From: Clostridia bacterium | GTDB lineage: Bacteria; Bacillota; Clostridia; Oscillospirales; CAG-272 | Direction: 5' to 3' | DNA: 64,000 nt | Assembly (NCBI GenBank): GCA_017461945.1 | Contig: JAFTSB010000067.1 | Span: forward strand, 42,781-106,780 | Part shown: piece after piece, positions 3,700 through 33,661 of the stretch | How positions within the stretch are numbered: the stretch's first letter is position 1 | Layout: each line of letters starts with the position of its first letter | Program-made: the position numbers and the translations under genes | The notes under the pieces: model-generated | What the model saw: the letters and a program-made list of their open reading frames with translations, nothing else | What the model was told of the DNA's origin: nothing | Databases searched by the model: none

Positions 3700-6438
3700 A
3701 TGGGGCTTTTCCGCAAGTTGTTCGGTTCTTACAGCGACCGACAAATCAAAAAACTGAAAAAGATTGCCGATGAAATCGAGGCCTTGGCTCCCACCTATGC
3801 CGCTATGTCTAACGAGGAGCTGGCCGGCGTGACCGCAAAGCTCAAGCAAAGACTGGCTGATGGAGAAGAGCTTGACGATATTTTGTGTGATGCTTACGCC
3901 GCCATTCGTGAAGCGGACGAGCGCGTGTTGGGCAAGCGCCCCTTTTACGTGCAGTTGTTGGGCGCTATCATTTTGCATCAAGGGCGCATTGCTGAGATGA
4001 AAACCGGTGAAGGTAAAACGCTGGTGGCAACAATGCCTGCCTATCTGAACGCTTTGGCCGGCGAGGGCGTGCACGTCGTCACCGTAAACGACTATCTGGC
4101 TCGCCGTGACAGTGAGGAAATGGGTCGCGTCTACTCCTTTATGGGGCTTTCTACAGGTCTTGTGGTACACGGTCTGTCTCCGGCTGAAAAGCAGGCTGCT
4201 TATGCCGCCGATATTACCTACGGTACCAATAATGAGTTTGGCTTTGACTACCTGCGCGATAACATGGTGGTCTATAAAAAAGACATGGTACAGCGCGGTC
4301 ACGTTTTTGCCATTGTTGACGAGGTGGACTCGATCCTGATCGACGAAGCGCGTACTCCCTTGATCATTTCGGGCGCAGGACAGAAGTCCACAGATCTTTA
4401 TGATCGCACCAATGAGTTGGTTCGCCGTATGACCAAGCTGATCCGCAAGGAAGTGGATAACAAAGAGGAAACTGACGAGGTGGACGCCGACTATCTGGTG
4501 GACGAAAAGGCAAGAAATGCCATTTTGACTCCCAGAGGTGCCAAGCGTGCCGAGGAGTTTTTTGGTATTGAAAACCTCAACGACCCCGAAAACGCCGACC
4601 TCGCCCATCATGTAAAACAAGCGATCCACGCTTATGGTGTCATGAAGCGCGATGTGGATTACGTCGTCAATGAGAACGGTGTTATGATCGTGGATTCCTT
4701 CACCGGCCGTATTATGCCCGGACGCCGCTATTCCAACGGCTTGCATCAGGCGATCGAGGCCAAAGAGGGGGTACAGGTCCAAAAAGAAAATCGCACCCTG
4801 GCTACCATCACCTTCCAGAATTACTTCCGCATGTATCGCAAGCTTTCCGGTATGACGGGCACTGCACTGACCGAGGAGACCGAATTCCGCGAAATCTATG
4901 CTTTGGATGTGGTAGAGGTTCCTACCAATCGTCCCATGATCCGCATTGACCAAAACGATGTGGTCTATAAGAACACCAAGGGCAAATACGATGCCATTGT
5001 GGCGCAGATTGAGGAGTGCCATCGAAAGGGCCAGCCGGTTCTGGTGGGCACCGTCAGCGTTGACAAATCCGAGGAATTGTCTGCACGCTTGAAAAAACAC
5101 GGTATTCCGCATAATGTGCTGAATGCCAAGCATCACGAGCGAGAAGCGGAAATCGTTGCCCAGGCGGGTAAGTTCGGAGCTGTGACCATCTCCACCAATA
5201 TGGCGGGGCGTGGTACTGACATTATGCTGGGTGGCAACTCGGAATTTATGGCCAAAAACGAAATGCGCAAGCAGGGAATTCCTGAGGAGCTGATCGCTAT
5301 GGCCACGGGTACTGCCGATATCGACGATGACGAAATTCGGGAGGCAAGACTCACCTTCCAAAAGCTCAATGAGCATTTCAAGGACCTGATCGCCCCTGAG
5401 GCCGATCGTGTTCGGGAGGCCGGAGGCCTGTATATTTTAGGCACAGAGCGCCACGAGAGCCGTCGCATTGATAACCAGCTCCGCGGTCGTTCCGGCCGCC
5501 AGGGTGACCCCGGCGAATCTCGCTTCTTCCTTTCCTTGGAGGACGATTTGATGCGCTTGTTTGGTGGCGACCGTATGATTAATATGGTGGAAAAGCTGGG
5601 ACTTCCCGAGGATCAGCCGATCAATGCGGGTATCTTGTCCAGCTCGATCGAAAACGCTCAAAAGCGCATTGAGGAAAACAACTTCAAGCGCAGAAAATAC
5701 GTGTTGACCTATGATGACGTGATGAACCAACAACGCAATCTTATCTATGAACAGCGTTTGCAGGTTCTCAACGGTGAGGATATTTCCGACACAATTCTTT
5801 CTATGATGCGTTCTTCTATTGAAGAAACGGTAGCGGCCTATGTAGGAGGCGACGATGGCGCCAACCTGGAGGGGCTAGCGGAACAATACAGCTATCTTTT
5901 GGCAGAAGGTGAGCTTTCTGACGATCACAAACAGAAAGCCGACGATCTTGTCGAGTTCATCTACCAAAAGGCTTTGGATGTTTACAATGGTAAAAAGGAG
6001 TTGTTCGGTGCGGATGTGTTCCCGGAGGTGGAGCGCTCGATCTTGCTGCAAACGGTAGACCGCCATTGGATGGAGCATATCGACACCATGGACGATCTAA
6101 AGGAGAGCATTGGCCTGCAGGCATATGCGCAGCGCGATCCCGTTAACGAGTATCGCCTGCAGGGCGCAGATCTGTTTGACGTTATGGTGGCCGAGATACG
6201 GGCAGAAACCGTTCGCATCATTCTTTCTGCCGTTCCTCGCACGCAGACGGTGCAACGTGTACAGGTTGCCAAGCCCTTGGCAGAAAGCTTTGCCGGCGCT
6301 GCAGGGCAGGAGAAAAAGAAAACCACTGTTGTGGTGCGCAAGGCCGAAAAGGTGGGCAGAAATGATCTTTGCCCCTGCGGCAGCGGAAAGAAATACAAAA
6401 AGTGCTGTGGTGCCCCCGGCAACGGCGGCGAGCAGTAA
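3700..6438 (+). CDS. secA: Preprotein translocase ATPase SecA
   Basis: MKTGEGKT, DEVDSILIDEARTPLIIS, TNMAGRGTDI and C-terminal CPCGSGKKYKKCC. Confidence 0.99.
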   Translation: MGLFRKLFGSYSDRQIKKLKKIADEIEALAPTYAAMSNEELAGVTAKLKQRLADGEELDDILCDAYAAIREADERVLGKRPFYVQLLGAIILHQGRIAEMKTGEGKTLVATMPAYLNALAGEGVHVVTVNDYLARRDSEEMGRVYSFMGLSTGLVVHGLSPAEKQAAYAADITYGTNNEFGFDYLRDNMVVYKKDMVQRGHVFAIVDEVDSILIDEARTPLIISGAGQKSTDLYDRTNELVRRMTKLIRKEVDNKEETDEVDADYLVDEKARNAILTPRGAKRAEEFFGIENLNDPENADLAHHVKQAIHAYGVMKRDVDYVVNENGVMIVDSFTGRIMPGRRYSNGLHQAIEAKEGVQVQKENRTLATITFQNYFRMYRKLSGMTGTALTEETEFREIYALDVVEVPTNRPMIRIDQNDVVYKNTKGKYDAIVAQIEECHRKGQPVLVGTVSVDKSEELSARLKKHGIPHNVLNAKHHEREAEIVAQAGKFGAVTISTNMAGRGTDIMLGGNSEFMAKNEMRKQGIPEELIAMATGTADIDDDEIREARLTFQKLNEHFKDLIAPEADRVREAGGLYILGTERHESRRIDNQLRGRSGRQGDPGESRFFLSLEDDLMRLFGGDRMINMVEKLGLPEDQPINAGILSSSIENAQKRIEENNFKRRKYVLTYDDVMNQQRNLIYEQRLQVLNGEDISDTILSMMRSSIEETVAAYVGGDDGANLEGLAEQYSYLLAEGELSDDHKQKADDLVEFIYQKALDVYNGKKELFGADVFPEVERSILLQTVDRHWMEHIDTMDDLKESIGLQAYAQRDPVNEYRLQGADLFDVMVAEIRAETVRIILSAVPRTQTVQRVQVAKPLAESFAGAAGQEKKKTTVVVRKAEKVGRNDLCPCGSGKKYKKCCGAPGNGGEQ

Positions 6439-27087: not shown

Positions 27088-27507
27088 TTAGAGGCTGTCA
27101 ACGATGCGATGTGCCCAATCCAGACAAGCTTTCTTTTCCTCATCCTTAACGCTGTTAAGGAAGGGAAGGAAGCTGCTCTTTACATAAAAGACCTCGTCCT
27201 TAACGTTAGTTCCGGCCTCGGCCAAAATACCTTTAACGTACTTGGCACCGGCTTCGTTGCCGTCGATAACCAAAGCCACGTTCTGGGCACGAGCCTTGGT
27301 CAGCTCGCGGCAGAACAAGCGAACCTGGTTTTCCAGATCGCCCTTGGTAGCAAGCAGCAGAACAACCAAACGCTCGTTATTGCAGGAATAAGCAGGAGGA
27401 ATAACGTCGGTAGCGTTGATGTCAAGACCAAACTCCTGATGAATCATAGGGGCGAGAGCGGCAACTTTGCCTTTGCCGGTATGAAGAACGCGCATTTTGA
27501 TAGCCAT
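27088..27507 (-). CDS. Hypothetical protein, possible flavodoxin-like fold
   Basis: 139 aa alpha/beta pattern, ggagg SD, own extended -10 promoter. Confidence 0.65.
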   Translation of the reverse strand: MAIKMRVLHTGKGKVAALAPMIHQEFGLDINATDVIPPAYSCNNERLVVLLLATKGDLENQVRLFCRELTKARAQNVALVIDGNEAGAKYVKGILAEAGTNVKDEVFYVKSSFLPFLNSVKDEEKKACLDWAHRIVDSL

Positions 27508-27708: not shown

Positions 27709-27758
27709 GGGTGCCATTACAATTATTTTAAATAAGTCAAGGTATCAATTGTTTTTCG

Positions 27759-28145
27759 CATTTAAAATTTTTAATAAAAGCCAAAGATGGAATTGTCTAT
27801 TAAAAAAAATAATCAAAGATAATAATAAATATTTTTTATGGAAACAATCCGTGGTCGTTGCAGCAGTTTTTTGTAGAATGAAAAGATTAAATACTTTCAT
27901 TAAAAATTTTAAATAAAAACGATGGATCGTCCATCCGGCAACTTTTTATTGATTGGCGGAAAACGCGTTCGCAAATGGCAATGAAAATTTTTGAACAAAA
28001 CAAGGGAGAGTCCGTTGAAAGAAATTTTAAAAAAGCATATATGATCCGCCACAGCCTTTATAACATTAAAAATTTTCAACGAAAACGATGAACTGTCCAT
28101 AAGATCCATTTTTATTAAACGCATCCAAGCGATCGGCACGCGTTC
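27759..28145. repeat. Degenerate ~37-bp direct repeats in an AT-rich intergenic region
   Basis: Copies at 27898 and 28064 are 31/37 identical; 27979 is 26/37 to 27898; weaker copies at ~27759 and ~27823. Confidence 0.55.
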
Positions 28146-28317: not shown

Positions 28318-28343
28318 TTATACAAAACTTTGATTTTGTATAA
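28318..28343. other. Palindromic tyrosine-recombinase-type site (candidate dif; attL of the prophage)
   Basis: TTATACAAAA-CTTTGA-TTTTGTATAA: perfect 10-bp arms and 6-bp spacer; AAAA-CTnnnn-TTTT core resembles difSL/difH. Confidence 0.6.
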
Positions 28344-28385
28344 TTTAATACATATTTTAAAAAGGGGTAAGCCCTCCACGTTTAT

Positions 28386-28414
28386 AGTATATCATACTCT
28401 TTTTGTTTTGTCAA
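28386..28414 (-). promoter_or_regulatory. Outward-facing sigmaA promoter at the prophage left end (faces the phage operon in the circle)
   Basis: Minus strand TTGACA-17-TATACT with extended TG; predicted TSS ~28379. Confidence 0.75.
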
Positions 28415-28440
28415 GAAGTAATTTGCGCCAACTGGGTGGG

Positions 28441-28507
28441 GCGAAGGGGCGCTGCACTTGGGTGCCCCCCACTACTGGTGGGGCCCCCAAGTGAGCGCCA
28501 TTTTCGC
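28441..28507. other. GC-rich long hairpin, candidate rolling-circle origin or packaging signal
   Basis: Nested stems gcgaa/ttcgc, ggcgct/agcgcc, cacttggg/cccaagtg and ccccac/gtgggg with a TACTG loop. Confidence 0.5.
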
Positions 28508-28612
28508 AAAGCAAAAAGCCGTAGCGCTTGCGCCACGGCTTCAATTTGCCCTACTCTTAGACTTGCTCCGTTATGGACGGGCTTCGTAAACAAGCCGAAA
28601 GGAGGTGATATT

Positions 28613-28699
28613 ATGCTACTACATCGTATTTGCTATTTTGTCAATGTCCATGGCCAAATGTTCCTTGACATAATAGCATTGCTCGTTGTCGCAAGATAA
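28613..28699 (+). CDS. 28-aa hydrophobic peptide, putative type I toxin
   Basis: MLLHRICYFVNVHGQMFLDIIALLVVAR; AGGAGGTGA SD; 14/28 identical to copy 2 with synonymous changes. Confidence 0.7.
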   Translation: MLLHRICYFVNVHGQMFLDIIALLVVAR

Positions 28700-28723
28700 C
28701 ACGCTCTTTCGGCTTGCCCGTCT

Positions 28724-28752
28724 ATTATACCATAACGGGCAAGTCTTGTCAA
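28724..28752 (-). promoter_or_regulatory. Consensus antisense promoter (putative antitoxin RNA)
   Basis: Minus strand TTGACA-17-TATAAT with extended TG, firing back across the peptide gene. Confidence 0.75.
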
Positions 28753-28937
28753 GAGCCAAGGTAGATACCTCAATCCACCCCTAACCGAATTTGTAGCCGT
28801 GGAAAACGCAAGCGCTTTTTGTTGGCCCGGGGGAGCATCTCGCCGCGCACCTCTCGGTGTCTGCGGCTTCGGTCACCTCGTCTGCGGACTCGGAAAAATG
28901 GCAATTAGGGATGGTGTCCCTGACCCACCCACCCTTG

Positions 28938-29732
28938 TTAGTCGGTGTCGGTTGTGAGCGGTTCCCTTCTCTCTTTGGGCAAGGTCAAAAGGCGGTTGGT
29001 CTGTAGCACCTTCCATCGGTCTGCAACTTCGGTGGGTACGCTTTTATAACGGCCTGCATAGCAGTGGGTATCGTAGGAGCGGAAAAAGGGGTTGATGAAG
29101 CCAACGAGGGTGCGCATATTGTCTTCGGTATTCCCTTCTTCTACTGTCTTGATTTCCTCGGAAATGCTGATGTTACGGCACTTGACCCAGTAGAAGCACA
29201 GAAACTTCTTAAAGTGCATCAAGTTATACACTACGTTAATGCGGCGGCGGATTTCAAGCACGATGTTTTCGGAGCACTGGTCATTGCACACGATATAGCC
29301 ACCGCGCGTGTAGTGTCGAAATAATCGAATGGCTTCGTTAAAGTTCTTCAGCACCAAGGGATTTTTGAAATCAAACTGATTGGCAAATGCACCTATCTCG
29401 TCAATGAAAACCACGGAGCGTGGGACGATACGTTCCCACAAAAGCAAATGCCCTGCTGTGAGAACTTCGGCATACTCCTTGCGGCTGATGCGCAAAGGGA
29501 TAGACGAATATAGCAAGGGCTTTTCCCATCTATCCTTGGGGTGCAAAAGGTTGTGCCATTTCACCTTGCGGCGGTTTTTACGTAGCAACTTCTTTGCCTG
29601 CTGTACCGATTTTAATGACTTCCCCGAGCCAAGGCCGCCAGTATAACATTGAATGGTGTCATAATGGATGATGTAAGGCTTAATGAGCCACACAAGAAAG
29701 ATGATTGTCAGCGCAATGATAAGAAATGCCAT
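28938..29732 (-). CDS. Zot-like / pI morphogenesis ATPase with N-terminal TM helix
   Basis: N-terminal TM, Walker A GGLGSGKS, Walker B VVFIDE, RHY and downstream Q motifs; aggag SD. Confidence 0.88.
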   Translation of the reverse strand: MAFLIIALTIIFLVWLIKPYIIHYDTIQCYTGGLGSGKSLKSVQQAKKLLRKNRRKVKWHNLLHPKDRWEKPLLYSSIPLRISRKEYAEVLTAGHLLLWERIVPRSVVFIDEIGAFANQFDFKNPLVLKNFNEAIRLFRHYTRGGYIVCNDQCSENIVLEIRRRINVVYNLMHFKKFLCFYWVKCRNISISEEIKTVEEGNTEDNMRTLVGFINPFFRSYDTHCYAGRYKSVPTEVADRWKVLQTNRLLTLPKERREPLTTDTD

Positions 29733-29733
29733 A

Positions 29734-30339
29734 TTATCTCCTTCCTCGCCACTCACTACCATAGAATTTATCAAAATCTACAGTATCAGCGGCAACACCG
29801 ATATTTATACCATCCATTCTGACCTCGCCGTCCTCTACCATCCGTTGCCAGTCCAACGGCAACAAACAATACTTGAAAGCGTTAAACCAATCTTTCGAAT
29901 TAAAGACTCGGTCAAGATAACTGGTCATAGTTCCCCACGCATTACGGATAGGCAGAGTCAACCACTCTACGGCGGTTTGGATATTTGACCATAACTTGGG
30001 AAAAACACCGCCAAGATTGTCAAAGAAATGCCGCATATAAGTTATACAGTTATTCATAAAGTCTGTGATGGCCTTGGGCACTTCAGACCATTTTTCAACA
30101 CTAACTTCTTGCCAACTGGGGAAATTAGGCATTAACTCAACATAGCGCGGCACAAACCCTTCCTTGTGATATTCTACATCATCAAGGGTTGGGAAGGTTT
30201 CAAAAAGCACGGCCATACGATTGAGATATTGAGCCGCATTGATGTGATAAGTGCTCACGATCGGCATTGATCCTATCTTTGCAAACAGAGCCGATACCAG
30301 TAATGCGGCACACAAAACGAAAACAAAAAACGTTCTCAT
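29734..30339 (-). CDS. Phage membrane-associated protein (pVI-position)
   Basis: N-terminal hydrophobic segment and amphipathic helices; ATGA-coupled to the upstream ORF; lies directly before pI. Confidence 0.65.
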   Translation of the reverse strand: MRTFFVFVLCAALLVSALFAKIGSMPIVSTYHINAAQYLNRMAVLFETFPTLDDVEYHKEGFVPRYVELMPNFPSWQEVSVEKWSEVPKAITDFMNNCITYMRHFFDNLGGVFPKLWSNIQTAVEWLTLPIRNAWGTMTSYLDRVFNSKDWFNAFKYCLLPLDWQRMVEDGEVRMDGINIGVAADTVDFDKFYGSEWRGRR

Positions 30340-30533
30340 CGTTTCAACCACCCTTTATATTTCATAAAGCGAAGCAAAAAATGGTAAGGCACACACACAA
30401 AGAAATGTACCATCACGGCGGCTACGGCGGTGATGAAGATATAGTAGAAGGTCTTTTCGCCATAGCCTTCGTATAGGCTTAAGTCGCCAAAATGAGGCAT
30501 AATGTACGTATGAAGAATTTCATAAAAGGTCAT
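30336..30533 (-). CDS. Small single-TM phage protein (minor coat candidate)
   Basis: 65 aa, one TM, basic C-terminus, ggaggg SD. Confidence 0.65.
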   Translation of the reverse strand: MTFYEILHTYIMPHFGDLSLYEGYGEKTFYYIFITAVAAVMVHFFVCVPYHFLLRFMKYKGWLKR

Positions 30534-30545
30534 ATACTTCCCTCC

Positions 30546-31496
30546 TTATCCGAAGAAGAATTTGCCACAGATGCCAATCACGAAAGCGGCAACAACGAAC
30601 GTAAACACTTGGACTACTACACCTGCAAGATTGAAACCGAAAACCTCAAAATCAAACATGGTCGATACCGCCCTATAGGGAGCAAATGCAATCTCGCCTA
30701 TAATGTCAAGGAAACTTTCGCTTACATCGTTGCTTTCGCCTTTAGTGACTCCGTTTCTGTACGCAGTATTAACTTGTTCAGCAACATCAGCAAGGCCTGC
30801 GGCCTTTCCTTCGTCAAAGCCTTCATTATAGCCGCTTGGTTCACCATCGTTAAAACCCTCTTCGTACCCGTCATTCCACGCAAAGCCCAAATCTTCCTCA
30901 TCATAATATCCTGCATGTTTTTCAATCCAAAAGATAGGGGGTGTATATGGCATTGAATAGACTCCAACCGTACTGGGTAAAGCGTTCAAATTCATTGAAA
31001 TAGAAGTGTCTAAACCATTACCACCATTGGCATAATAAAGCCATATGGTGCAATGTGCCCCAGCCTTAACCACAGAAGACGAACACTCGTAATTATCATC
31101 ACCGATAAGCCGTATTTCGCTTTCAGTACCATCTAAATTCTCGATATAAACAACAATCTGCCAGTCAAGCATTTCAGAGTCCTCTATTGGGCGATCCGTA
31201 TATTCAACAGTAACACCGAAATATACATCTTGGGTGGTAAACAATTCAAAAGAGCCAAGTTTAATTTCATCAGTTTGGCTTTCGTGATCTATTACCATAT
31301 CAATCACCCCATTTGAGTGAATAACATAATTGCACTCCTGCCTTTCAATAGGAATTTCAGGCATTTCATTCCAAATGATGTGATTTGTATAAATATTTTC
31401 TTCCATTGGGCTAAGATATGTTGCCGATGCCGTAACGGCAAACGCAGAAACCATCAGCACAACCAGAGTCAGCAATACAAACATTCTCTTTTTCAT
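30546..31496 (-). CDS. pIII-like adsorption protein
   Basis: Signal peptide ending ASA, acidic N-terminal domain, GxxxG linker GYEEGFNDG...GYNEGFDEGKAAG, C-terminal TM anchor. Confidence 0.7.
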   Translation of the reverse strand: MKKRMFVLLTLVVLMVSAFAVTASATYLSPMEENIYTNHIIWNEMPEIPIERQECNYVIHSNGVIDMVIDHESQTDEIKLGSFELFTTQDVYFGVTVEYTDRPIEDSEMLDWQIVVYIENLDGTESEIRLIGDDNYECSSSVVKAGAHCTIWLYYANGGNGLDTSISMNLNALPSTVGVYSMPYTPPIFWIEKHAGYYDEEDLGFAWNDGYEEGFNDGEPSGYNEGFDEGKAAGLADVAEQVNTAYRNGVTKGESNDVSESFLDIIGEIAFAPYRAVSTMFDFEVFGFNLAGVVVQVFTFVVAAFVIGICGKFFFG

Positions 31497-31510
31497 TTCT
31501 TTCTCCTTTC

Positions 31511-31547
31511 AAATAAAAACCCCATCCGGCATTGCTGGATGGGGTTT
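31511..31547 (-). terminator. Intrinsic terminator directly after the major coat gene
   Basis: aaaccccatccagc/gccggatggggttt stem plus U run; same position as the terminator after gene VIII in Ff phages. Confidence 0.85.
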
Positions 31548-31551
31548 ATTA

Positions 31552-31776
31552 TCAGCCGCGCAGGTGCTTGATAAAGGCAAAAATGCCCATTACAAGACCA
31601 ATCGCAAGACCAATGCCGCCGACAGTCAGACCAACTTTTGCAATGTCCGAGAGCACAGGCTCGGCTGCTGCAGGGTCAGCATAAATCAAATGCGAAAATG
31701 CCGTTTTAATGCCCTGCGTCATAGGCTCGATGATGCCAGTAAAGCCATCGCCAATCTGTTTAACGATATCGCCCAT
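31552..31776 (-). CDS. Major coat protein candidate (pVIII-like)
   Basis: 74 aa, amphipathic N-terminal half, Gly-rich TM helix, basic C-terminus KHLRG; aaggag SD. Confidence 0.75.
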   Translation of the reverse strand: MGDIVKQIGDGFTGIIEPMTQGIKTAFSHLIYADPAAAEPVLSDIAKVGLTVGGIGLAIGLVMGIFAFIKHLRG

Positions 31777-31778
31777 TA

Positions 31779-31940
31779 TTACTCCTTTCCGACAAGCGCA
31801 AGAAGCAAGCGACGGTCGCTCTTGAACACGGGTTTGATGGGAATATCAAAACCGCGCACGCGCAGAATTAACTGCTCAAAATGTACCTTCTCGCCCGTCT
31901 CCTGATTGTCAAAATCACGGGTTTCAGTATAAAGTTCCAT
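31779..31940 (-). CDS. 53-aa protein, ssDNA-binding (pV-position) candidate, not in the ORF track
   Basis: MELYTETRDFDNQETGEKVHFEQLILRVRGFDIPIKPVFKSDRRLLLALVGKE; aggagg SD; between rep and coat. Confidence 0.65.
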   Translation of the reverse strand: MELYTETRDFDNQETGEKVHFEQLILRVRGFDIPIKPVFKSDRRLLLALVGKE

Positions 31941-31996
31941 ATGCACATACCTCCTTTATGGCTTTATTATAAAGCCATAAATCCGAATATGATATA

Positions 31997-32581
31997 TCAC
32001 TCTAAAATTTCTCCAGTTTCTGTATCGCACGTATTCCACATAGGGCTCTGTGCCAAAGCAACCAATTTCAGCAAGGAATTTGCTTGATAAATGAAGGAAG
32101 GGTGTGTGCGCAAAAATGCCTTGTAGCCAATTTGATTTAAAGCAAGGGATTCAATATCTTCAAGCAGAGTTTCGTTCTTATCTTCTTCGGTCTGCTCTGT
32201 GACCTTTTGAAGCACTTCTTCTAATTCGGCAGGGGCTAAATTAGTATCAAGGTCAACTTGCTTATATTCGGGCTTTTCGGGGTTATCCAAATGGAGCAAA
32301 TATCGCACCGCGCCGTTGGGCTTGGTGGCAAGAGGGGCTTGCACAAATCTATTGTCAAGGCCAAGCCGCTTGGCTATGGTGTACTGAAATTCCCTTTTAT
32401 CCGACATCACAACAAGGTGAAAATGGACTTTTTTGGCCGTTCCATCTTCGTTAATGTCTTGGTCATGTTTTATCATCGCATAACGATAGCCAAAGGCCTT
32501 AAGGCCTGCCCTTACGCTCTCTACGTGTTCCTCATAGAACATGGACGGAAACCACTTTGCACGCGCTCCTCTTTCAGCCAT
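31997..32581 (-). CDS. Rolling-circle replication initiator, HUH superfamily, pMV158 RepB/Rep_2-like
   Basis: HDQD...KKVHFHLVV (HUH motif 2) and YLLH (motif 3 Tyr). Confidence 0.85.
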   Translation of the reverse strand: MAERGARAKWFPSMFYEEHVESVRAGLKAFGYRYAMIKHDQDINEDGTAKKVHFHLVVMSDKREFQYTIAKRLGLDNRFVQAPLATKPNGAVRYLLHLDNPEKPEYKQVDLDTNLAPAELEEVLQKVTEQTEEDKNETLLEDIESLALNQIGYKAFLRTHPSFIYQANSLLKLVALAQSPMWNTCDTETGEILE

Positions 32582-32855
32582 TTCTCGCCACCTCGCTTTC
32601 GTTCACAATTTGTTCATGGACAATGGACAATGGGGGCAGATGGTCGCAGTACATCTGCCCTGCCCACCCTTCCTCTGCAGGGTCAAAATCGTCAACGAAA
32701 ATACCGTAATATGGGTTTTGAGTACATCCAGTTACAATGCGGTGCACTTGTAACCAAGATAGACCAAGGAAACGTGCAACGTCTGCTTGCGAGTAAAACA
32801 ACGCTACTGGTAATTGTGCTTCGGTGCGCTTTTCGTAAATAAGATATGAACGCAT
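32574..32855 (-). CDS. Putative HTH DNA-binding protein, first gene of the phage operon
   Basis: SQADVARFLGLSWLQVHRIV helix-turn-helix-like segment; ggagg SD; overlaps the rep start. Confidence 0.6.
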   Translation of the reverse strand: MRSYLIYEKRTEAQLPVALFYSQADVARFLGLSWLQVHRIVTGCTQNPYYGIFVDDFDPAEEGWAGQMYCDHLPPLSIVHEQIVNESEVARNG

Positions 32856-32886
32856 AAAAAAACCTCCACAGTTTTTACTGTGGAGG
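32856..32886 (-). terminator. Terminator/SD-sequestering hairpin directly before the first phage ATG
   Basis: Minus strand CCTCCACAGT-AAAA-ACTGTGGAGG-TTTTTTT-ATG. Confidence 0.75.
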
Positions 32887-32973
32887 GCTTGCAATCTAAA
32901 AATATAATAAATTATGCCCTATACGGGCACTCGCTCTACCCGCGCGCCTTGCGGCTTTCAAAGCACGGGCGAG

Positions 32974-33079
32974 TACAAAATCAGCATTTTGTGCAAAGAA
33001 GCAAATGTATAGGTAAAAAGCCCTACTGGCTTTTTGCAATCCTTCTTTACACAAAACACACGCTCGATTTTGTATAATT
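32974..33079. other. Two inverted dif-like sites (attR region, folded-attP remnant)
   Basis: TACAAAA-TCAGCA-TTTTGTGCAAAGAAG at 32974-33001 is complementary to CTTCTTTACACAAAA-(11 nt)-TTTTGTA at 33042-33074. Confidence 0.65.
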
Positions 33080-33141
33080 GTATGTATAAATAGATGAGGG
33101 CATGTGCCCCCTTGCTCCCTTGTTATAGCATACCTTTCGAA

Positions 33142-33364
33142 TTGCGCCACGGTTGTCAATTTGCCCTACTCTTAGACTTGCTTCGTCATGGACGAGCTTC
33201 GTAAACAAGCCGAAAAGAGGTGATATCATGCCGTTTAAAACTTTTTGCTACATAATCAATACTCACACCCAAATGATACTTGATATTGTAGCACTAATCG
33301 TTATTGCAAAATAACACGCTCTTTCGGCTTGCCCGTTTATTATACCATAACAGGCATGTCAAGA
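33142..33364 (+). repeat. Type I TA-like module, copy 2
   Basis: Direct repeat of 28528-28754; antisense TGnTATAAT retained, -35 spacer only 12 bp. Confidence 0.8.
33228..33314 (+). CDS. 28-aa hydrophobic peptide, putative type I toxin (not in the ORF track)
   Basis: MPFKTFCYIINTHTQMILDIVALIVIAK; GAGGTGA SD; paralog of 28613-28699. Confidence 0.7.
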   Translation: MPFKTFCYIINTHTQMILDIVALIVIAK

Positions 33365-33391
33365 AATTGTTCCCTTTTGCTTAATGTTATC

Positions 33392-33661
33392 TCAGATGTT
33401 CTTTTTTTCGCCACTATTTTTATACTTTTGGCGCGTAGCCTCGCCGCCACGCAAATGGCGCTCGTTTTTGTTTTTTTGTAAAATATCCTGTACGCGCTCA
33501 AACAAACAACGATTGACCCCTTGCAATTCTACTGTAACGTCTTTATGTACGGTGCTTTTGCTGATGCCAAAATATTGTGCAGCGGCACGAACGGTGCAGC
33601 CGTATTCCACAATATAATTCCCGATCAGCTCGCAGCGCCTTGGTTGACTGAAGTATGCCAT
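33392..33661 (-). CDS. spoIIID: Sporulation transcriptional regulator SpoIIID
   Basis: TVRAAAQYFGISKSTVHKDVT and ERHLRGGEATRQKY. Confidence 0.93.
   Translation of the reverse strand: MAYFSQPRRCELIGNYIVEYGCTVRAAAQYFGISKSTVHKDVTVELQGVNRCLFERVQDILQKNKNERHLRGGEATRQKYKNSGEKKNI

What the first reader, a model, noticed from the sequence alone, without database searches (positions are those of the whole stretch)
28369..32890. Circularisation-dependent promoter and antiterminator switch for the phage operon
Seen: the first phage gene is preceded by CCTCCACAGT-AAAA-ACTGTGGAGG-U7-AUG (minus strand, 32886-32853), which is both an intrinsic terminator and a hairpin hiding its own GGAGG SD. A TTGACA-17-TATACT promoter (28414-28386) points out of the prophage; its predicted +1 (~28379) begins GTGGAGGGCTT, the exact complement of AAGCCCTCCAC overlapping the 5' arm of that hairpin. 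Inference: only in the circle does this promoter read through attP into HTH-rep-coat, and its 5' end then disrupts the terminator and frees the SD. When integrated, the promoter is detached and read-through from the right terminates. attP would double as a riboregulatory leader, giving repressor-independent lysogenic silencing.
Basis: partly seen in the sequence, partly recalled or inferred. Interest (0 to 1): 0.9.

Follow-up and report, generated by a model that had tools for sequence, protein, structure and literature searches.

The report
Filamentous prophage switch spanning its attachment site
A tiny filamentous prophage sits in the chromosome's dimer-resolution site, and cutting it open there separates its one strong promoter and a short matching RNA segment from a terminator hairpin that guards its first gene, so the phage genes are probably readable only from the circular form.

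Summary
The hairpin-U7-ATG (32886-32853, minus), the TTGACA-17-TATACT promoter (28414-28386, minus) and the 11-nt complementarity (28379-28369 with 32890-32880) are all present. None of 20000 shuffles reached 11 nt.

The prophage ends are not at the 11-mers. The element is a 4734-bp inovirus-like prophage with no integrase. It lies between a canonical single-copy dif-like site (28318-28343) and a degenerate copy (33045-33079). To its right is the remnant of an older phage end, not host DNA.

A related metagenome contig (L024) ends and restarts inside the HTH gene, so it is circular or tandem. It carries promoter, attP, leader and hairpin in one piece, with different letters but the same complementarity (9 nt).

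The modelled circle leader folds into one long hairpin closed by the 11-mer, leaving the terminator open (pair probability about 0.95). The integrated sequence forms the terminator (about 1.0). L024 is balanced or favours the terminator.

Two rivals remain. The repeated motif could be DNA operator sites. The fold could serve only as a CTXphi-like single-stranded attP.

No RNA data exist. The logic matches Tn916 T1/canT and ICEKp1. Verdict: interpretation partly supported; a new variant of a known kind.

The parts
28318..28343 (.). Canonical dif-like site TTATACAAAA-CTTTGA-TTTTGTATAA. It is the left junction (attL) and presumably the still-functional chromosomal site.
   Evidence: Found once per genome in 28 of 40 genus genomes including this one (G017 has two), with 0 hits for the reversed control. 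It sits at the same place between the 139-aa gene and spoIIID in 8 of 8 relatives printed. GC skew changes sign nearby.
33045..33079 (.). Degenerate dif-like site (attR): a phage-derived poor arm, an 11-nt spacer and a perfect right arm. The 14-nt core 33066-33079 is identical to 28332-28345.
28386..28414 (-). Outward promoter P_out, TTGACA-17-TATACT with an extended -10.
   Evidence: 11 of 12. Same extended -10 as host promoters. The same promoter sits at the same place in L024 5087-5115.
28369..28379 (-). Predicted 5' end of the P_out transcript and 5' strand of the basal stem (the proposed antiterminator).
32880..32890 (-). 3' strand of the basal stem. It overlaps the 5' arm of the terminator hairpin by 7 nt.
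32853..32886 (-). Intrinsic-terminator hairpin (10 bp, loop AAAA) with GGAGG in its 3' arm, then U7 and the ATG of the first gene.
   Evidence: Conserved in L024 with 3 compensatory pairs.
32891..33065 (-). Leader between the att junction and the hairpin. It holds the rest of site 1 (33065-33042) and a second dif-like site (33001-32973) complementary to site 1, plus the split complement of the att arm (32917-32891). It folds as one long forked hairpin.
   Evidence: The L024 leader folds with z -4.17.
32574..32855 (-). First gene: 93-aa protein with a weak HTH match.
   Evidence: 48% identity over 42 aa to L024.
31997..32581 (-). Rolling-circle Rep (Rep_OBD, PF01719, E 5.5e-12). It overlaps the HTH gene by 8 nt.
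28938..31940 (-). Structural and assembly genes: 53 aa, coat-like 74 aa, 316 aa, 65 aa, 202 aa and a Zot-like assembly ATPase (28938-29732).
28448..28542 (-). Terminator (28542-28515) and a G+C-rich long hairpin (28499-28448). The hairpin is a candidate replication origin or packaging signal.
   Evidence: z -6.81. This stretch is missing from the remnant.
28541..28752 (.). Small-ORF and antisense module: a 28-aa hydrophobic ORF (28613-28699, +) opposed by a perfect promoter (28752-28724, -). It resembles a type I toxin-antitoxin pair.
   Evidence: No Pfam hit.
33080..33390 (-). Remnant of the left end of an older, related phage. It is a second copy of the small-ORF module (81% identical) plus a crippled outward promoter (-10-like at 33132-33122, no -35) that points into the prophage.
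   Evidence: A complete version of this end is seen in a contig of run X6.

Best explanation
The region is a 4.7-kb inovirus-like prophage without an integrase. It is inserted in the chromosomal dif-like site, making it an element that exploits the host Xer recombinase.

In the circular form the only strong promoter (P_out) lies just upstream of attP. It transcribes attP, a roughly 230-nt leader and then the HTH-Rep-coat-assembly operon. The leader folds into one long forked hairpin. Its basal stem pairs the first 11 nt of the transcript with the sequence that would otherwise be the 5' arm of an intrinsic terminator. That terminator also buries the ribosome-binding site of the first gene.

The basal stem can form before the terminator's 3' arm is made, so the circle-form transcript reads through and is translatable. 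Integration cuts the circle between the att arm and the rest of the leader. The promoter and the 5' strand of the basal stem are then moved to the far end of the prophage. Any transcript entering from the right folds the terminator and stops.

Shown: the anatomy, the topology, and conservation with covariation in one relative. Inferred: the transcription start site, the RNA-level competition and the expression states.
For: Insertion at dif:
- The palindromic site is single-copy in 28 of 40 genus genomes (G017 has two) and sits at the same locus in 8 of 8 printed relatives.
- The window spans a GC-skew sign change.
- None of the 8 phage ORFs hits an integrase family. The genome has 6 tyrosine-recombinase matches elsewhere.

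Topology:
- Contig L024 carries the 3' part of the HTH gene at its start and the 5' part at its end. Joining them gives an intact 93-aa ORF.
- L024 carries TTGACA-17-TATACT, then the att arm, leader, hairpin and ATG in one piece.
- X6 contig record 25 likewise joins a perfect outward promoter to the att arm and leader.

Necessity: the ATG follows the U-run directly and the SD is in the stem. Every mRNA for the first gene must therefore pass the terminator.

Complementarity at the predicted TSS: 11 nt here (0 of 20000 shuffles) and 9 nt in L024 with different letters (22 of 20000).

Folding:
- Modelled circle leader: MFE -102.9 with the basal stem against -100.2 with the terminator forced. Pair probabilities are about 0.95 against 0.04-0.39.
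- Integrated sequence: terminator 0.72-1.0.
- Stepwise folding keeps the basal stem as the MFE until the 3' arm is complete in the window and in both L024 start-site variants.

Covariation: a two-sequence consensus fold has 38 pairs: 27 unchanged, 5 one-sided, 6 compensatory (3 in the terminator, 3 in the att fold) and 0 broken.

Precedent: Tn916 and ICEKp1 work this way.
Against: - No transcript data exist: all 7 listed runs are DNA contigs, so the TSS and termination are unverified.
- Only one full relative exists. There the terminator is favoured at equilibrium (0.72 with a start at 5120; 1.0 with a start at 5122).
- At the decision length the two conformers differ by only about 1 kcal/mol in the window.
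- L024 has extra copies of the motif in DNA that would not be transcribed: in the promoter spacer, 21-22 nt from the +1 copy, and a partial inverted copy upstream of the -35. This fits protein-binding sites or ssDNA pairing better than an RNA switch.
- With DNA parameters and more flanking sequence, the window forms the terminator hairpin rather than the basal stem.
- The circle leader of the window is a model built in a script, not an observed molecule. No circle junction was seen in the contigs of runs X1 and X2, though contigs cannot show rare forms.
Confidence: 0.45

Rival explanations
1. The repeated motif is a set of DNA operator sites for the phage HTH protein (or iterons for Rep). These would be a palindrome over the start of its own gene and half-sites at P_out. 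The match between the +1 region and the hairpin arm then reflects shared protein recognition, and the regulation is ordinary repression or autoregulation.
For: In L024 the 9-10-nt motif occurs at 5098-5107 (promoter spacer) and 5120-5128 (+1). That is 21-22 nt apart, or two helical turns. It also occurs as the inverted pair forming the hairpin (5311-5321, 5325-5334), with a partial inverted copy just upstream of the -35. The first gene has a weak HTH match. It differs between the two phages (48% identity), as do the motifs.
Against: The window has no copy in the promoter spacer or upstream of the -35. The match to the 5' side extends 4 nt beyond the half-site shared with the 3' arm (11 nt against 7 nt). 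The distance between the conserved half-sites of the palindrome differs between the phages (about 17 against 13 nt centre to centre, by eye). A U-run directly after the stem and an SD inside it are conserved in both, and an operator does not need them.
Confidence: 0.2
2. The long fold matters only as single-stranded DNA. It would be a CTXphi-type attP(+) forked hairpin that presents a double-stranded dif-like site to the host Xer recombinase, with the 11-mer merely extending its stem. The hairpin before the first gene is then a plain insulator that leaks or is overcome some other way.
For: Site 1 (att arm, 11-nt spacer, poor arm) and site 2 (33001-32973, with a 6-nt spacer) are complementary. 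They pair in every fold. L024 shows compensatory changes in these stems. The prophage junction lies exactly at the border of the perfect arm of site 1, as expected for exchange of one strand of a folded site. An 11-nt spacer is a poor double-stranded Xer substrate (general knowledge of Xer sites; review passages).
Against: The complementarity begins within 2 nt of the predicted TSS in both phages and does not extend into the promoter in the window. Its 3' strand overlaps the terminator arm in both phages. With DNA parameters the window's basal stem is not in the MFE. This rival is compatible with the main explanation rather than exclusive of it.
Confidence: 0.25
3. P_out mainly serves the integrated state. 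It would read out of the prophage across dif towards the host 139-aa gene (27088-27507, same strand), or make a trans-acting RNA whose 5' end opens the hairpin of transcripts made elsewhere.
For: The promoter points at the host gene in the window and in the second integrated relative, L023. There the homologous gene starts about 280 nt beyond the dif-like site.
Against: About 870 nt of repeats lie between the promoter and the gene in the window. The same promoter is kept in the non-integrated L024 arrangement. A trans action would defeat the insulator.
Confidence: 0.06
4. The 11-nt match is chance next to an ordinary terminator.
For: Only two full sequences are available.
Against: 0 of 20000 shuffles reach 11 nt. 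An independent 9-nt match occurs at the same two places in L024 (22 of 20000).
Confidence: 0.03

Closest known systems
Tn916 terminator T1 and antiterminator canT (Wirachman and Grossman 2024, PMC11658703; abstract, Introduction and Discussion read)
   Same: The main promoter sits at one end of the element and reaches the replication and transfer genes only after circularisation. A terminator at the other end, with the first gene's start codon inside the terminator hairpin (at the 3' end of its loop), insulates the integrated element from outside transcription. A cis-acting RNA made from the promoter end overcomes that terminator.
   Different: Tn916 is an 18-kb conjugative element with its own integrase, not a phage at dif. 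canT is a 452-bp element described as a processive antiterminator acting on several and on foreign terminators, probably by modifying RNA polymerase. Here the prediction is a simple competing helix specific to one terminator, which would also free the ribosome-binding site. No sequence comparison with canT was made.
ICEKp1 state-dependent promoter switching (Liu et al. 2026, PMC13023037; abstract only)
   Same: A 3'-end promoter drives a 5'-end gene only in the excised circle. Stem-loops in the 5' UTR act as a potential terminator on transcripts entering from the host when the element is integrated.
   Different: That system concerns the integrase gene of a Gram-negative ICE at a tRNA gene. 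No pairing of the transcript's 5' end against the terminator is described in the abstract.
CTXphi-type elements exploiting Xer (PMC3442271 listing abstract; PMC5357621 passages; the 2005 ssDNA-integration paper is recalled, not seen)
   Same: A filamentous phage without an integrase, inserted at dif. Two dif-like sites can fold into a forked hairpin in the viral strand, and the junction lies at the border of one arm. Arrays with older remnants sit beside the active site.
   Different: Here the host is a Gram-positive gut clostridial genus. The dif-like site has two identical arms, which suggests (by inference) a single recombinase. The fold lies in the transcribed leader of the phage operon. 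Xer dependence and single-strand exchange are untested.
XacF1 of Xanthomonas (PMC5666396; listing abstract only)
   Same: An inovirus at dif whose attP lies inside a regulatory unit, so integration changes phage regulation.
   Different: In XacF1 the attP splits the coding region of a putative regulator. Here it splits a non-coding leader from its promoter.

Membership tests
[quoted passage not shown] | Inserted at the chromosomal dif site | tested here: met
   The palindromic site is single-copy in 28 of 40 genus genomes (G017 has two), with 0 hits for the control pattern. It lies at the same locus in 8 of 8 relatives without the phage. The GC-skew sign change falls within about 5-12 kb. Binding by Xer was not tested.
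[quoted passage not shown] | No recombinase of its own | tested here: met
   None of the 8 ORFs matches an integrase family in Pfam or PHROGs. There are 6 PF00589 matches elsewhere in the genome.
[quoted passage not shown] | Flanked by a dif site and a dif-like hybrid site | tested here: met
   28318-28343 and 33045-33079, sharing a 14-nt core.
[quoted passage not shown] | Integration depends on the host Xer recombinase | not testable with these tools
   Needs genetics or in vitro recombination.
CTXphi-type attP(+) | Two dif-like sites in the viral strand that pair into a forked hairpin with an unpaired central region | tested here: met
   Site 1 and site 2 pair in all folds, leaving an 11-nt against 4-6-nt internal loop. 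L024 shows 3 compensatory pairs. This is prediction only.
CTXphi-type attP(+) | Exchange of a single pair of strands with the ssDNA genome, and irreversible integration | not testable with these tools
   The junction position is compatible but would also fit a double-stranded reaction.
Intrinsic terminator | G+C-rich stem-loop followed directly by a U-run | tested here: met
   10 bp with 6 G-C pairs, loop of 4, then T7; -18.1 kcal/mol. In L024 the same stem was listed by the scan on the opposite strand only. On the gene strand it is followed by T6 by eye.
Tn916-type termination and antitermination (T1/canT) | Terminator at the element end just before the first gene, with the main promoter at the other end reading across the joint | tested here: met
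Tn916-type termination and antitermination (T1/canT) | Processive RNA antiterminator acting on heterologous terminators | not tested
   The model here is a local competing helix. Nothing suggests processivity, and no comparison with the canT sequence was made.
Known RNA families (Rfam) | Match to a curated leader or riboswitch model | tested here: not met
   No match at or above any family's gathering score in 20000-42000. Four weak hits lie far below their thresholds.
Inovirus (filamentous phage) | Zot/pI-like assembly ATPase, small coat protein and rolling-circle Rep, all on one strand in a genome of 4-12 kb | tested here: met
   Zot matches are below Pfam's cut-off (16.3 against 20.3 bits) and weak in PHROGs (E 2.5e-4). 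However, the protein is 54% identical to the annotated Zot of a circular inovirus record. Rep_OBD scores E 5.5e-12. No virion evidence.

The most novel reading that the evidence does not exclude
One nucleic-acid fold is read twice. As single-stranded DNA, the forked hairpin would present the attachment site to the host Xer recombinase. As RNA, the same fold, closed by the transcript's first 11 nt, would act as the antiterminator and anti-sequestrator of the whole phage operon. Integration cuts this fold at its stem. The recombination event itself would therefore switch the phage off without a dedicated repressor, in a Gram-positive filamentous phage.
Probability: 0.3. Interest if true: 0.8.

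Novelty: new variant of a known kind. Interest (0 to 1): 0.6.

Why it matters
If true, this is the simplest known way for a mobile element to sense its own physical state. The recombination site sits inside an RNA switch, so integration removes both the promoter and the antiterminator strand, and no repressor is needed.

It would extend the terminator and antiterminator insulation logic shown for Tn916 (2024) and ICEKp1 (2026) to filamentous phages that borrow the host Xer system, using a much smaller part list of 11 nt against a 10-bp hairpin.

It would also add a clostridial gut commensal to the hosts of dif-integrating inoviruses. The papers I saw describe these for Proteobacteria. The searches returned no listed paper that combines filamentous phage, attP and antitermination, or an inovirus at dif in a Gram-positive host.

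The design is short enough to test directly with reporter fusions.

Tried and rejected
- More relatives. A single-protein scan of viral contigs and an alignment scan of it found no relative. Two DNA patterns from the leader and attP found 0 stretches.
- A class-wide sample of 399 scored genomes gave only this genome.
- A genus scan gave only distant Zot relatives (28-33% identity) at other loci. I fetched these but did not analyse them further, because one lies near its own integrase gene.
- Genome contigs gave one relative (L023) holding the left end only. Its genome gave no match to the HTH protein or to the dif pattern, so its right end could not be examined.
- The closest deposited phage (a circular inovirus, Zot 54% identical) has a different gene order and an A+T-rich intergenic region, so it was not comparable.
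- Hits to the promoter region in G017 and G011 proved to be ordinary host promoters.
- Expression: no RNA holder is listed among the 7 runs.
- Circle junction: none was seen in the contigs of X1 and X2. Joints from 28343-28345 to 33528-33543 have sides of 26-34 nt and probably come from related strains without the phage.
- I first took 33080-33110 for host flank because relatives have similar letters there. I rejected this after one search showed the same letters downstream of a phage promoter in X6.
- The small ORFs have no Pfam family.
- Earlier findings of this scan were not open.
- Supplementary files of the Tn916 paper (its S6 figure on related elements) could not be seen and may bear on how widespread such pairs are.

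Full report
WHAT IS THERE. Window 28.3-33.1 kb holds eight genes, all on the minus strand.
- A 93-aa protein with a weak HTH match.
- A rolling-circle Rep (Rep_OBD, E 5.5e-12).
- A 53-aa ORF.
- A 74-aa coat-like protein.
- ORFs of 316, 65 and 202 aa.
- A Zot-like assembly ATPase. It is 54% identical to the annotated Zot of a deposited circular inovirus.

None of the eight matches an integrase family.

THE OBSERVATION.
- The hairpin CCTCCACAGT-AAAA-ACTGTGGAGG (32886-32863, minus) is followed by T7 and the ATG. It was picked up as an intrinsic-terminator pattern. It folds at -18.1 kcal/mol, z -4.05. GGAGG lies in its 3' arm.
- The promoter TTGACA-17-TATACT (28414-28386, minus) scores 11 of 12 with TG before the -10. 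It shares its extended -10 with two ordinary host promoters of the same genus.
- Seven nt after the -10 begins GTGGAGGGCTT, the exact complement of AAGCCCTCCAC at 32890-32880. No shuffle out of 20000 gave 11 nt between these two zones.

WHERE THE PROPHAGE REALLY ENDS. In 8 of 8 same-genus relatives printed, the interval between a 139-aa gene and spoIIID carries a palindrome, TTATACAAAA-N6-TTTTGTATAA.
- A genus-wide pattern search finds it in 28 of 40 genomes including this one, once each except G017, which has two at contig ends. There were no hits for the reversed control.
- The window spans a change of GC-skew sign at about 15-26 kb.
- I read the palindrome as the chromosomal dif site.

In the window the canonical copy is at 28318-28343. 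A degenerate copy is at 33045-33079. The two share a 14-nt core (28332-28345 = 33066-33079). The inserted element is therefore 4734 bp. The 11-mers lie 24 nt and 155 nt inside its ends.

The DNA to the right (33080-33390) is not host DNA. It repeats the phage's small-ORF module at 81% identity and then continues into a -10-like element. A 119-nt deletion has removed the -35 and the G+C-rich hairpin. A contig of run X6, from another study, shows the complete form of this end. There, TTGACA, 17 nt and TATAAT are followed by the same flank, the att arm and the leader (record 25 and table 5c). The locus is therefore an array of a full prophage next to the stump of an older one, as is usual at dif.

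TOPOLOGY. The promoter points out of the prophage through the dif site. Metagenome contig L024 (Zot 71-73% identical) begins with the 3' part of the HTH gene and ends with its 5' part. Joining the two across a 12-nt overlap gives an intact 93-aa ORF aligned end to end with the window's. L024 is therefore circular or tandem.

In L024 the same TTGACA-17-TATACT (5087-5115) is followed by these elements in order:
- the att arm AATTATACAAAA (5134-5145);
- an 11-nt spacer and a poor arm;
- a homologous leader;
- a hairpin (5311-5334);
- a T-run and the ATG (5339).

No other promoter-like site scoring 9 of 12 or better lies on the gene strand between promoter and gene in L024. None lies between the hairpin and 33940 in the window. 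The ATG abuts the U-run and the SD is in the stem. Every mRNA for the first gene, and for Rep, which overlaps it, must therefore pass this terminator.

THE FOLD. I modelled the circle leader in a script by joining the two halves at the shared core.
- Its MFE (-102.9 kcal/mol) is one long forked hairpin. The att arm pairs with a split complement, and site 1 pairs with a second dif-like site (33001-32973). The whole fold is closed by the 11-mer pair, leaving the terminator unformed and GGAGG free.
- Forcing the terminator costs 2.7 kcal/mol (-100.2).
- Pair probabilities are about 0.95 for the basal stem and 0.04-0.39 for the terminator.
- The natural integrated sequence of equal length gives the terminator at 0.72-1.0.

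Prefix-by-prefix folding keeps the basal stem as the MFE until the terminator's 3' arm is complete. At that length the two states are about 1 kcal/mol apart.

In L024 the matching pair is CCGTGGGTA with TACCCACGG, 9 nt (22 of 20000 shuffles).
- With a start at 5120 the basal-stem state is the MFE (-83.1 against -82.5), but the ensemble favours the terminator (0.72).
- With a start at 5122 the terminator wins outright.

A two-sequence consensus fold has 38 pairs: 27 unchanged, 5 one-sided, 6 compensatory (3 in the terminator, 3 in the att stems) and none broken.

WHAT COUNTS AGAINST THE RNA SWITCH.
- There is no RNA evidence of any kind.
- Only one full relative exists, and it is thermodynamically lukewarm.
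- L024 carries the motif twice in P_out, 21-22 nt apart. One of these copies lies in the untranscribed spacer. A partial inverted copy with an A-run lies upstream of the -35. That pattern is what operator sites or single-strand pairing would look like.
- With DNA parameters the window prefers the terminator hairpin.
- The site 1 and site 2 pairing by itself is fully explained by a CTXphi-like folded attachment site.

COMPARISON WITH WHAT IS KNOWN. Tn916 keeps its main promoter and a cis-acting RNA antiterminator (canT) at one end. At the other end it has a terminator (T1), with the first gene's start codon inside the terminator hairpin (at the 3' end of its loop). Expression follows circularisation, and T1 insulates the integrated element (PMC11658703; abstract, Introduction and Discussion read).

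ICEKp1 switches from a host promoter to a 3'-end promoter on excision and has terminator-like stem-loops in the 5' UTR (PMC13023037; abstract). XacF1 has its attP inside a regulator gene (listing abstract).

The present case has the same logic in a different kind of element. It is a filamentous phage using the host's recombinase at dif in a Gram-positive host. Its predicted mechanism is simpler: a competing helix formed by the very 5' end of the transcript, which would also unmask the ribosome-binding site.

None of the papers listed by four literature searches describes this for filamentous phages. In one search none of the 10 listed papers contained the word stem 'antiterminat'.

VERDICT.
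The topology and the need for read-through are well supported. The 5'-end antiterminator is plausible and conserved in one relative, but untested and rivalled.
- It is a new variant of a known kind.
- Interest is 0.6.

Noticed in passing
window 28541-28752 and 33156-33367; L024 about 4725-4980: This is a small-ORF and antisense module. A 28-aa hydrophobic ORF with a strong SD is opposed by a perfect TTGACA-17-TATAAT promoter and a terminator. The RNA folds into a long hairpin (z -6.06). It resembles a type I toxin-antitoxin pair, is present in both phages and in the remnant, and has no Pfam family.
   Followed up: partly
window 27750-28120; relatives L005, L006, L009, L010, L013: Beside the dif-like site, the window and the relatives printed carry several copies of a unit of about 80-85 nt (AAAATTTT...ACGATGG...GTCC...). 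Tandem Repeats Finder did not report them at score 30. Their function is unknown.
   Followed up: no
window 28448-28499 (minus): This G+C-rich, nearly perfect long hairpin lies between the module's terminator and P_out (131-nt fold, z -6.81 as DNA). It is replaced by a different G+C-rich stretch in L024, which has a different Rep, and it is deleted in the remnant. It is a candidate replication origin or packaging signal.
   Followed up: partly
G000:C31:67791-68507 (locus L027), with a tyrosine recombinase match at C31:62536-63030: The same genome holds a second, distant inovirus-like Zot gene (28% identity). It lies near a recombinase gene, so it may use a different way of integrating.
   Followed up: no
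G017:C7:129-154 and G017:C88:198-223 (loci L033, L011): One relative has two copies of the dif-like site, both about 130-220 nt from contig ends. This suggests that another dif-inserted element broke the assembly there.
   Followed up: no
window 28318-28343 and genus relatives: The two arms of the dif-like site are perfect reverse complements of each other and only the 6-nt centre varies between species. This suggests (inference) a single-recombinase Xer system rather than a XerC/XerD pair.
   Followed up: no
L023 2100-2260: In the second integrated relative, the region before the att arm holds a local 11-bp hairpin (GTGGGCACTAT...ATAGTGCCCAC) overlapping a TATAAT. The spacing differs from the window and L024. 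Its right end was not recovered, so the model could not be tested there.
   Followed up: partly
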